A DNA stretch of 64,000 nt, taken from NCBI RefSeq assembly GCF_003018255.1, contig NZ_CP027440.1; one strand, 5' to 3'. This stretch comes from Escherichia coli. GTDB lineage: Bacteria; Pseudomonadota; Gammaproteobacteria; Enterobacterales; Enterobacteriaceae. Both the position numbers and the translations under genes were made by a program. Each line of letters starts with the position of its first letter. The first letter of the stretch is position 1. Positions 54,276 to 59,665 of this stretch are shown here, piece after piece. The notes under the pieces were generated by a model that was not told the origin of the DNA, ran no database searches, and worked only from the letters and a program-made list of their open reading frames with translations.

Positions 54276-54306
54276 AAAGCAAAAAGGCCATCCTTTCGGA
54301 TGGCCT
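54276..54306 (-). terminator. rrnD operon terminator (also sits just downstream of yhdZ)
   Basis: AGGCCATCCgaaaGGATGGCCT hairpin followed by TTTTTGCTTTT on the minus strand. Confidence 0.55.
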
Positions 54307-54319
54307 TTCGCTTGATTTG

Positions 54320-54439
54320 ATGTCTGGCAGTTCCCTACTCTCGCATGGGGAGACCCCACACTACCATCGGCGCTACGGCGTTTCACTTCTGAGTTCGGCA
54401 TGGGGTCAGGTGGGACCACCGCGCTACTGCCGCCAGACA
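54320..54439 (-). rRNA. rrfF: 5S rRNA, distal copy of rrnD
   Basis: 120-nt reverse-complement match to E. coli 5S rRNA. Confidence 0.9.
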
Positions 54440-54476
54440 AATTCTTTTCTAATCTGCCGAACTTTAACCTAAAAAG

Positions 54477-54552
54477 TGGTGCTGATACCCAGAGTCGAAC
54501 TGGGGACCTCACCCTTACCAAGGGTGCGCTCTACCAACTGAGCCATATCAGC
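54477..54552 (-). tRNA. thrV: tRNA-Thr (anticodon GGU)
   Basis: 76-nt reverse-complement match to E. coli tRNA-Thr; CCA end present. Confidence 0.9.
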
Positions 54553-54564
54553 ACGCTAAATTTG

Positions 54565-54684
54565 ATGCCTGGCAGTTCCCTACTCTCGCATGGGGAGACC
54601 CCACACTACCATCGGCGCTACGGCGTTTCACTTCTGAGTTCGGCATGGGGTCAGGTGGGACCACCGCGCTAAGGCCGCCAGGCA
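54565..54684 (-). rRNA. rrfD: 5S rRNA, proximal copy of rrnD
   Basis: 120-nt reverse-complement match to E. coli 5S rRNA. Confidence 0.9.
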
Positions 54685-54781
54685 AATTCTGTTTTATCAA
54701 CACGTCTCGTTATGACATGTCGATTTAATCTGTATCAGGCTGAAAATCTTCTCTCATCCGCCAAAACATCTTCGGCGTTGT

Positions 54782-57686
<2,905 letters not shown>

Positions 57687-57860
57687 TCACAACCCGAAGA
57701 TGTTTCACTTCAGAGTTGCGAAAATTTGAGAGACTCACGAACAACTTTCGTTGTTCAGTGTTTCAATTTTCAGCTTGATCCAGATTTTTAAAGAGCAAAA
57801 CTTCGCAGTGAACCTTTGCAGGTACACTCTGAAGTATTTTTTATTTAATCACTACAGAGA

Positions 57861-57936
57861 TGGTGGAGCTATGCGGGATCGAACCGCAGACCTCCTGCGT
57901 GCAAAGCAGGCGCTCTCCCAGCTGAGCTATAGCCCC
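57861..57936 (-). tRNA. alaU: tRNA-Ala (anticodon UGC), spacer tRNA
   Basis: 76-nt reverse-complement match to E. coli tRNA-Ala. Confidence 0.9.

Positions 57937-57978: not shown

Positions 57979-58055
<77 letters not shown>

Positions 58056-58123: not shown

Positions 58124-59665
<1,542 letters not shown>

What the first reader, a model, noticed from the sequence alone, without database searches (positions are those of the whole stretch)
54320..54684. The two 5S rRNA genes of rrnD differ in sequence, with a compensatory pair in helix I
The two 5S copies differ at four positions. In the distal copy (rrfF), a C-to-U change at rRNA position 3 is matched by a G-to-A change at the pairing 3' position, preserving helix I. 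The proximal copy (rrfD) instead carries AG-to-CU changes at positions 12-13. Maintained heterogeneity with compensation suggests both copies are functional rather than one decaying.
Basis: seen in the sequence. Interest (0 to 1): 0.2.

Follow-up and report, generated by a model that had tools for sequence, protein, structure and literature searches.

The report
Two differing 5S genes in rrnD
The two 5S ribosomal RNA genes at the end of the E. coli rrnD operon do differ at four bases, two of which are a matched change that keeps a stem paired; this is a known, near-fixed feature of E. coli, and the extra copy looks functional rather than decaying.

Summary
Observation confirmed. Window 54320-54684 (minus strand) holds rrfD (54684-54565), thrV (54552-54477) and rrfF (54439-54320), the 3' end of E. 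coli rrnD next to yhdZ.

The two 120-nt 5S genes differ at positions 3, 12, 13 and 117. C3-G117 in the proximal copy is U3-A117 in the distal copy, a compensatory change in helix I.

It is not an assembly error. The distal allele is identical in K-12 MG1655 and matches exactly in about 90% of 5,400 complete E. coli genomes; the four inexact cases I opened keep it.

A12/C12 is a polymorphism split 4:4 among the eight K-12 copies. U13 is a common E. coli allele, present in at least one copy in about 75% of records. Only U3-A117 is specific to rrfF.

New detail: in 119 Enterobacterales species with a 5S gene after thrV, that copy has U3-A117 in 54, C-G in 60, U-G in 5 and never a mismatch. No proximal copy (0 of 95) has A117. 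RNase E-type flanks and a terminator are intact.

So both copies look functional. The heterogeneity is already catalogued for K-12. Why the pair persists is inferred, not shown: escape from gene conversion at the edge of homology, or selection. Low interest.

The parts
54565..54684 (-). Proximal 5S rRNA gene (rrfD), 120 nt; C3, C12, U13, G117
   Evidence: Rfam RF00001 93.2 bits. Boundaries come from alignment to the K-12 rrfD annotation. It differs from K-12 rrfD only by G13U.
54477..54552 (-). tRNA-Thr(GGU), thrV, between the two 5S genes
   Evidence: ARAGORN; Rfam tRNA 70.7 bits; identical to K-12 thrV in the alignment.
54320..54439 (-). Distal 5S rRNA gene (rrfF), 120 nt; U3, A12, G13, A117
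   Evidence: Rfam RF00001 90.2 bits. Sequence is identical to K-12 rrfF.
54437..54437 (-). Position 3 of the distal 5S (U; C in the proximal copy at 54682)
54323..54323 (-). Position 117 of the distal 5S (A; G in the proximal copy at 54568); pairs with position 3 in helix I
54672..54673 (-). Positions 12-13 of the proximal 5S (CU; AG in the distal copy at 54428-54427), unpaired loop A
   Evidence: Positions 12-14 vary between species.
54282..54309 (-). Intrinsic terminator hairpin of rrnD, right after the distal 5S
   Evidence: Terminator scan: 12-pair stem with 6 G-C pairs, followed by a T run. The same sequence follows the partial 5S 3'-end copy in K-12 rrnD.
54685..54781 (-). 23S-5S spacer; its last bases (ACAGAAUU) are shared with the stretch upstream of the distal copy
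54782..57686 (-). 23S rRNA gene (rrlD), upstream in the same operon
   Evidence: Rfam RF02541, 2876 bits.
58124..59665 (-). 16S rRNA gene (rrsD); tRNA-Ile (57979-58055) and tRNA-Ala (57861-57936) lie in the spacer
   Evidence: Rfam RF00177, 1577 bits; ARAGORN.

Best explanation
These are the two 5S rRNA genes of the E. coli rrnD operon (rrfD, thrV, rrfF). They are co-transcribed with 16S and 23S and both are released as working 5S rRNA.

The distal gene carries an old double substitution, C3-G117 to U3-A117. It keeps the third base pair of helix I intact, which means selection acts on the folded RNA.

The pair persists as a mark of the distal copy. The likely reason is that this copy is a short island of about 135 bp of homology between thrV and the terminator, and the two sites lie within about 10 nt of its edges. 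Gene conversion from the other 5S genes evens out its interior but rarely reaches the ends.

The differences at positions 12-13 are ordinary standing polymorphisms in the unpaired, variable loop A. They are probably moved among operons by gene conversion.

Shown: the anatomy, the compensation, its near-fixation in E. coli, and its restriction to the distal copy across genera. Inferred: transcription and processing, incorporation into ribosomes, and the edge-of-homology reason for persistence.
For: Anatomy and identity:
- establish the genes. Window rrfF equals K-12 rrfF, and only rrfF among the eight K-12 copies has U3 and A117.

E. coli population:
- The U3+A12 junction matches exactly in 4,900 of 5,443 records and the A117 end in 4,944 of 5,462.
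- The four inexact cases I opened still carry U3, A12 and A117.
- C3 at rrfF was found in one record. Two G117-at-rrfF records were opened; both keep U3, i.e. a U-G wobble.

Across 119 Enterobacterales species:
- Distal pair 3:117 is C-G in 60, U-A in 54 and U-G in 5, with no mismatch.
- Proximal copies are C-G in 56 and U-G in 1; 38 further partial 3' ends all have G117.
- Formal count: CG 54, UA 22, UG 5 and none unpaired among 81 distinct sequences, and no shuffle reached the observed covariation.

Folding energy:
- U-A costs 2.1 kcal/mol against C-G and a C-A mismatch 3.7. Helix I is still predicted in the lowest-energy fold.

Processing and termination:
- Flanks are conserved in 117-120 of 120 distal copies, and a terminator follows.

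Edge effect:
- Over 56 species pairs, proximal and distal copies differ at position 3 in 30 and at 117 in 29. They differ at 12-14 in 6-9 and at any site in positions 15-110 in 5 or fewer.
- Lineage-specific interior changes are more often shared by both copies than not, 29 against 23.
- The G3 2020 study (PMC8022953) documents frequent conversion between E. coli rrn operons and a sharp fall with reduced homology.

Loop A:
- The A12/C12 split is 4:4 in K-12 and U13 is common.
Against: - No expression or ribosome data were available, so function is inferred from conservation.
- The edge-of-homology idea does not explain everything. In K-12-type strains the 3' side of rrfF continues into a module homologous to rrnA and rrnB, so A117 is no longer at an edge there. 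Yet A117 with that module matches exactly in 2,761 records and G117 in only 15.
- Half the sampled species have C-G in the distal copy, so the U-A state is not required.
- Most non-E. coli loci come from draft assemblies. Repeated rRNA can be collapsed there, which may make the interiors of the two copies look more alike than they are.
- No species tree was used, so the number of independent gains or losses is unknown.
Confidence: 0.8

Rival explanations
1. The U3-A117 pair is positively selected in the distal copy for a role of its own. One candidate role: it makes the helix I strands of the two tandem 5S units on one transcript non-interchangeable. Proximal C3 opposite distal A117 is a mismatch, and proximal G117 opposite distal U3 is only a wobble. 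That would favour correct folding of each unit. Another candidate is a specialised 5S variant.
For: - A117 occurs in the distal copy only: 54 of 119 against 0 of 95 proximal copies. It is seen in genera from five families by my own placement of the genera, which no tool checked.
- U3-A117 is near-fixed in E. coli, even where the 3' flank is homologous to other operons.
- In the nearest-neighbour energy model of the 365-nt rrfD-thrV-rrfF RNA, the real sequence favours the native topology by 1.6 kcal/mol. With identical ends the strand-swapped topology is favoured by 2.7, a shift of 4.3 kcal/mol.
- The partition function moves the same way.
Against: - 60 of 119 species have C-G in both copies, and 10 of 56 pairs are fully identical, so tandem identical 5S units are tolerated.
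- The proximal unit is transcribed first and would probably fold before the distal one exists.
- The energy model handles the loop A junction poorly. It predicts mostly swapped pairing even for the real sequence, so its absolute numbers cannot be trusted.
- The U-G forms seen in five species and 15 E. coli records give no discrimination in the model.
Confidence: 0.12
2. The distal copy is a redundant duplicate drifting toward a pseudogene, and the four differences are neutral noise.
For: - It is the only 5S gene in the operon set that is not needed for one-to-one stoichiometry with 23S.
- It has a slightly lower Rfam score (90.2 against 93.2 bits) and a helix I weaker by 2.1 kcal/mol.
Against: - 116 of 120 positions are identical to the proximal copy.
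- Pair 3:117 is never a mismatch in 119 species. A mismatch was found in one of about 5,400 E. coli records, a K-12-derived strain sampled from mouse gut.
- The processing flanks are conserved across the order.
- The arrangement occurs throughout Enterobacterales and in Aeromonas.
Confidence: 0.03
3. The differences are sequencing or assembly errors in this window.
For: None, beyond the general risk of error in repeated rRNA regions.
Against: - E. coli strain 104 has identical sequences of both copies, and K-12 has the identical distal copy.
- Thousands of complete genomes match exactly.
Confidence: 0.005

Closest known systems
E. coli K-12 rrnD distal end: rrfD-thrV-rrfF (b3274, b3273, b3272). 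From memory it was first sequenced by Duester and Holmes, Nucleic Acids Res 1980, 8:3793; that paper is not held in the library.
   Same: Same gene order and same neighbour, yhdZ. thrV and rrfF are identical in sequence, including U3, A12 and A117.
   Different: - The window's rrfD has U13 where K-12 has G13.
- The window lacks the 167-bp block that follows rrfF in K-12 (an rrnB-T1-like terminator plus a partial 5S 3' end).
- The window has a different segment in the 23S-5S spacer.
Catalogued rRNA variation within the E. coli K-12 genome (Kurylo et al. 2018, Cell Rep, PMC6312700)
   Same: That paper states that K-12 5S rRNAs vary at four positions. My comparison of the eight K-12 copies gives four positions: 3, 12, 92 and 117. 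Three of the window's four differences fall at these positions.
   Different: - The paper's functional work concerns the 16S variant rrsH, not 5S.
- U13 is not a K-12 variant.
- In the text I could read, conservation of a 5S variant across genera is not discussed.
Concerted evolution of rrn operons by gene conversion (PMC8022953, G3 2020)
   Same: Variants at positions 12 and 13 are shared among operons. The interiors of the two rrnD 5S genes are kept alike.
   Different: The U3-A117 pair has not been evened out. It stays on one copy across E. coli and many genera.
Compensatory base changes in rRNA helices (the classical covariation signal used to infer 5S helix I)
   Same: C-G to U-A, with U-G forms also seen and essentially no C-A.
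   Different: Here the covariation separates two gene copies within one genome and one operon, rather than species.

Membership tests
Bacterial 5S rRNA (Rfam RF00001) | Full-length match to the covariance model above the gathering score | tested here: met
   93.2 and 90.2 bits against a gathering score of 38. Both match model positions 1-120 and neither is truncated.
Bacterial 5S rRNA (Rfam RF00001) | Helix I formed by the 5' and 3' ends, all pairs standard | tested here: met
   Pairs 1:119 to 10:110 are standard in both copies. Pair 3:117 is C-G in the proximal and U-A in the distal copy.
Bacterial 5S rRNA (Rfam RF00001) | Location downstream of 23S in an rrn operon, before a terminator | tested here: met
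   Order is 16S, tRNA-Ile, tRNA-Ala, 23S, 5S, tRNA-Thr, 5S, terminator.
Bacterial 5S rRNA (Rfam RF00001) | Flanking sequences for release from the 9S precursor by RNase E | tested here: inconclusive
   Both copies have A(A/C)AGAAUU upstream and CAAAU downstream, and these are conserved in 117-120 of 120 distal copies. That these are RNase E sites rests on my recollection of the 9S RNA literature. Cleavage was not tested.
Bacterial 5S rRNA (Rfam RF00001) | Incorporation into 50S subunits | not testable with these tools
   Needs sequencing or mass spectrometry of 5S rRNA from purified ribosomes.
E. coli rrnD operon | Two 5S genes separated by thrV, next to yhdZ, with tRNA-Ile and tRNA-Ala in the 16S-23S spacer | tested here: met
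   In all, 5,301 of 5,426 E. coli genomes hold at least 80% of the 561-nt stretch in one place.
Decaying duplicate or pseudogene | Loss of pairing, truncation or relaxed conservation compared with functional copies | tested here: not met
   The distal copy is full length. The one paired-site change is compensated, the other two differences are in loop A, and there is no mismatch in 119 species.

The most novel reading that the evidence does not exclude
The U3-A117 pair is a selected identity mark of the post-thrV 5S gene, not a passively retained one. It would be kept across Enterobacterales because it makes the helix I strands of the two tandem 5S units on one transcript non-interchangeable, or gives the distal RNA some other distinct property. 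On this reading its patchy distribution across families reflects an ancient origin, with repeated erasure by gene conversion wherever selection lapsed.
Probability: 0.12. Interest if true: 0.45.

Novelty: already known. Interest (0 to 1): 0.18.

Why it matters
For E. coli this adds little. The second 5S gene of rrnD and its variant bases are in the K-12 annotation and in published catalogues of rRNA variation.

The modest value lies in the comparative result. One base pair at the very ends of the distal 5S gene has stayed different from every proximal copy sampled (and, in K-12, all seven other copies), in many genera, and is almost always compensated. That gives a clean natural marker of how far gene conversion reaches into a short island of homology. 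It is also a simple handle (U3/A117) for measuring whether, and how much, rrfF RNA enters ribosomes.

If the mark proved to be selected, it would be a small example of how tandem structured RNAs avoid mispairing with each other.

Tried and rejected
- Literature. The 1980 rrnD paper (by DOI) and Pei et al. 2012 on 5S diversity within genomes (PMC3439594) are not held. Statements about them rest on memory or on citations. Searches for rrfF-specific work gave only strain tables and operon diagrams.
- Parsing error. My first pass over the fetched loci produced false 'proximal' copies where the contig starts inside thrV, because of a negative slice. The position-117 index was also off by one; one search fixed the index and the false proximal copies. 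Only the corrected proximal counts are used.
- Structure string. The one derived from the Rfam alignment was shifted in helices IV and V after gap removal. I used the accepted E. coli 5S pairing instead.
- Whole-transcript folding predicts mostly strand-swapped pairing even for the real sequence. I treat it as a sign of the model's limits and use only the direction of the effect.
- All eight 5S copies of the window's own genome could not be aligned, because only 64 kb is available and no identical genome is in the collection (best 99.8%). K-12 served as a stand-in.
- Sequencing error and pseudogene readings were considered and rejected (see the rival explanations).

Full report
**What is there**

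Rfam and ARAGORN show a complete rRNA operon on the minus strand:
- 16S, 59665-58124
- tRNA-Ile, 58055-57979
- tRNA-Ala, 57936-57861
- 23S, 57686-54782
- a 5S gene, tRNA-Thr(GGU) at 54552-54477, and a second 5S gene

A terminator hairpin at 54309-54282 follows. The convergent gene yhdZ ends at about 54259. The stretch matches the rrnD end of nearly all complete E. coli genomes: 5,301 of 5,426 hold at least 80% of it in one place, annotated as two rrf genes, tRNA-Thr and yhdZ. A 10.8-kb piece reaching into acrEF-yhdWXYZ is 99.8% identical to the best E. coli record. By alignment to K-12 MG1655, the mature genes are rrfD at 54684-54565 and rrfF at 54439-54320.

**The observation**

The two 120-nt genes differ at exactly four positions:

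| Position | Proximal | Distal |
|---|---|---|
| 3 | C | U |
| 12 | C | A |
| 13 | U | G |
| 117 | G | A |

Positions 3 and 117 are partners in helix I in the Rfam consensus, and cmscan marks the distal pair as compensated. With the accepted 5S structure, U3-A117 costs 2.1 kcal/mol against C-G. The single-step forms cost 2.7 (U-G) and 3.7 (C-A). Helix I is predicted in every case.

**Polarity of the changes**

I fetched all eight 5S genes of K-12 and compared them.
- U3 and A117 occur only in rrfF, and K-12 rrfF is identical to the window's distal copy.
- Position 12 is A in rrfA, B, E and F and C in rrfC, D, G and H. The A/C difference is therefore a polymorphism shared among operons, not a change specific to either rrnD copy.
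- K-12 varies at positions 3, 12, 92 and 117. That agrees with the statement in Kurylo et al. 2018 that K-12 5S rRNAs vary at four positions (PMC6312700).
- The window's proximal copy differs from K-12 rrfD only by U13.
- A 5S 5' end with C12-U13 is present in at least one copy in 4,113 of 5,463 E. coli records. In O157:H7 PV15-279 the best match (position 233,288) lies far from that strain's rrnD (about 4.26 Mb), so it is another operon.

**Not an error, and near-fixed in E. coli**

- The thrV-to-rrfF junction with U3 and A12 matches exactly in 4,900 of 5,443 records.
- A 5S 3' end with A117 matches exactly in 4,944 of 5,462.
- I opened four inexact cases. All keep U3, A12 and A117. Their differences are spacer changes or an extra C97U, which turns G79-C97 into a wobble.
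- The reverse queries were nearly empty. C3 in the rrfF context matched exactly in one record, a K-12-derived strain sampled from mouse gut that has C3 opposite A117.
- G117 in the K-12-type rrfF context matched in 15 records. The two I opened, E. coli C and another K-12-derived strain from mouse gut, have U3 opposite G117.

**Beyond E. coli**

One scan of species-representative genomes looked for the 3' end of thrV followed by a 5S start, with any base allowed at position 3. After correcting a parsing error:

| Copy | n | C-G | U-A | U-G | Mismatch |
|---|---|---|---|---|---|
| Distal | 119 | 60 | 54 | 5 | 0 |
| Proximal, complete | 57 | 56 | 0 | 1 | 0 |
| Proximal, 3' end only | 38 | all G117 | | | |

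- A117 is therefore seen in 54 of 119 distal copies and 0 of 95 proximal copies.
- U-A distal copies occur in Escherichia, Salmonella, Citrobacter, Klebsiella, most Enterobacter, Kosakonia, Pluralibacter, Lelliottia and Silvania, among other Enterobacteriaceae. They also occur in Photorhabdus, Hafnia, Dickeya and Leminorella.
- Pantoea, Erwinia, Tatumella, Rahnella, Buttiauxella, Morganella and Budvicia have C-G.
- On 81 distinct sequences, pair 3:117 is CG 54, UA 22, UG 5 and never unpaired. It accounts for 22 of the 27 double-sided changes.
- Over 56 species with both copies, the copies differ at position 3 in 30 and at 117 in 29. They differ at 12-14 in 6-9 and at any site in positions 15-110 in 5 or fewer.
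- Lineage-specific interior changes are more often shared by both copies than not, 29 against 23.
- Upstream AAAGAAUU and downstream CAAAU are conserved in 117-120 of 120 distal copies and resemble the flanks of proximal copies.

**Most likely explanation**

Both genes make working 5S rRNA. The distal one carries an old compensated change in helix I, which is direct evidence that selection acts on its fold. The mismatch form is essentially absent, while the wobble form is tolerated.

I infer, but have not shown, why the mark stays on the distal copy. This copy is an island of about 135 bp of homology between thrV and the terminator, and the two sites lie within about 10 nt of its edges. Conversion from the other copies would even out the interior but seldom reach the ends. 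Gene conversion among E. coli rrn operons is frequent and falls off sharply with reduced homology (PMC8022953). Lineages with C-G in the distal copy would then be erasures, and the U-G cases partial ones.

**What does not fit neatly**

- In K-12-type strains, rrfF is followed by a 167-bp block homologous to the rrnA and rrnB terminator region. A117 is not at a homology edge there, yet it is retained: 2,761 exact records against 15 with G.
- The U-A state appears in five families of the order by my own placement of the genera, which no tool checked. That needs either an ancient origin with many losses or repeated gains.

These points leave room for direct selection on U-A. One concrete possibility is that the pair stops the helix I strands of the two tandem units from pairing with each other. 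For explicit structures of the 365-nt RNA, the real sequence favours the native topology by 1.6 kcal/mol. With identical ends the swapped topology is favoured by 2.7. The model is unreliable for this junction, and half the species manage with identical ends. I give this reading about 0.12.

**Comparison with what is known, and verdict**

The arrangement and the rrfF sequence are those of K-12. The variable positions are already catalogued, and reviews note the second 5S gene of rrnD (PMC11883441). The finding is therefore already known.

The restriction of U3-A117 to the distal copy across genera is a small addition, and I could not find it discussed in the papers available to me.

Limits:
- The species set is a truncated sample, mostly from draft assemblies.
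- No tree-based count of events was made.
- No expression data were available.

Noticed in passing
window 54310-54337 (junction of the rrfF 3' end and the terminator); K-12 locus L002 253-437: After rrfF, K-12 has an extra 167 bp: an rrnB-T1-like terminator block, then a second copy of the 18-nt 5S 3' end (AACTGCCAGACATCAAAT, with the A of position 117). The window and E. coli 104 lack it, as if it had been deleted between the direct repeats. rrnA and rrnB have the same layout, but with G in both repeats. The K-12-type junction matches exactly in 2,761 of about 5,400 records.
   Followed up: partly
window 54700-54725 (23S-5S spacer): The spacer carries the segment GACATGTCATAACGAGACGTGT where all seven K-12 operons have AGAACGCAGAAGCGGTC. 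E. coli 104 shares the window's version with one difference.
   Followed up: partly
window 57694-57793 (-): Rfam StyR-44 match (106.9 bits) immediately upstream of the 23S gene, in the 16S-23S spacer.
   Followed up: no
L125 668-787 and L126 668-787 (E. coli SCU-484 and muskdeer13-4, distal 5S): These strains carry an extra C97U in rrfF only, which turns G79-C97 of helix IV into a wobble. It probably accounts for part of the ~10% of E. coli records without an exact A117-end match; only two cases were opened. Across genera the same pair is GC in 56 and GU in 25 distinct sequences.
   Followed up: partly
L133 402-521 (E. coli K-12-derived strain PG20180060, sampled from mouse gut): This is the only record found with C3 opposite A117 in rrfF, a helix I mismatch. 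Related strains from mouse gut (PG20180170-172) and E. coli C have U3 opposite G117. These look like recent single-site changes or partial conversions.
   Followed up: partly
L046 267-936 (Erwinia rhapontici); L110 99-393 (Enterobacter ludwigii); L122 1-667 (Tatumella saanichensis): The arrangement varies. E. rhapontici has 5S-thrV-5S-thrV-5S. E. ludwigii has two thrV-to-5S junctions, one followed by only a truncated 5S. T. saanichensis has extra partial 5S fragments downstream.
   Followed up: no
L025 179-298 (Pseudocitrobacter faecalis, proximal 5S): This is the only proximal copy with U3 (opposite G117), next to a U3-A117 distal copy. It could be conversion in the reverse direction or an artefact of the draft assembly.
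   Followed up: no
L121 (CACSKA010000008.1, labelled Chryseobacterium sp. 18061): The contig carries an enterobacterial-type thrV-5S end with U3-A117. The assembly is probably contaminated or mislabelled.
   Followed up: no
PMC4696680 (PLoS One 2015), text read: The paper assigns tRNA-Ile and tRNA-Ala spacers to rrnA, rrnE and rrnH and a tRNA-Glu spacer to rrnD. The window's rrnD has tRNA-Ile and tRNA-Ala, which from memory is also the K-12 arrangement, so the paper's assignment looks mistaken.
   Followed up: no
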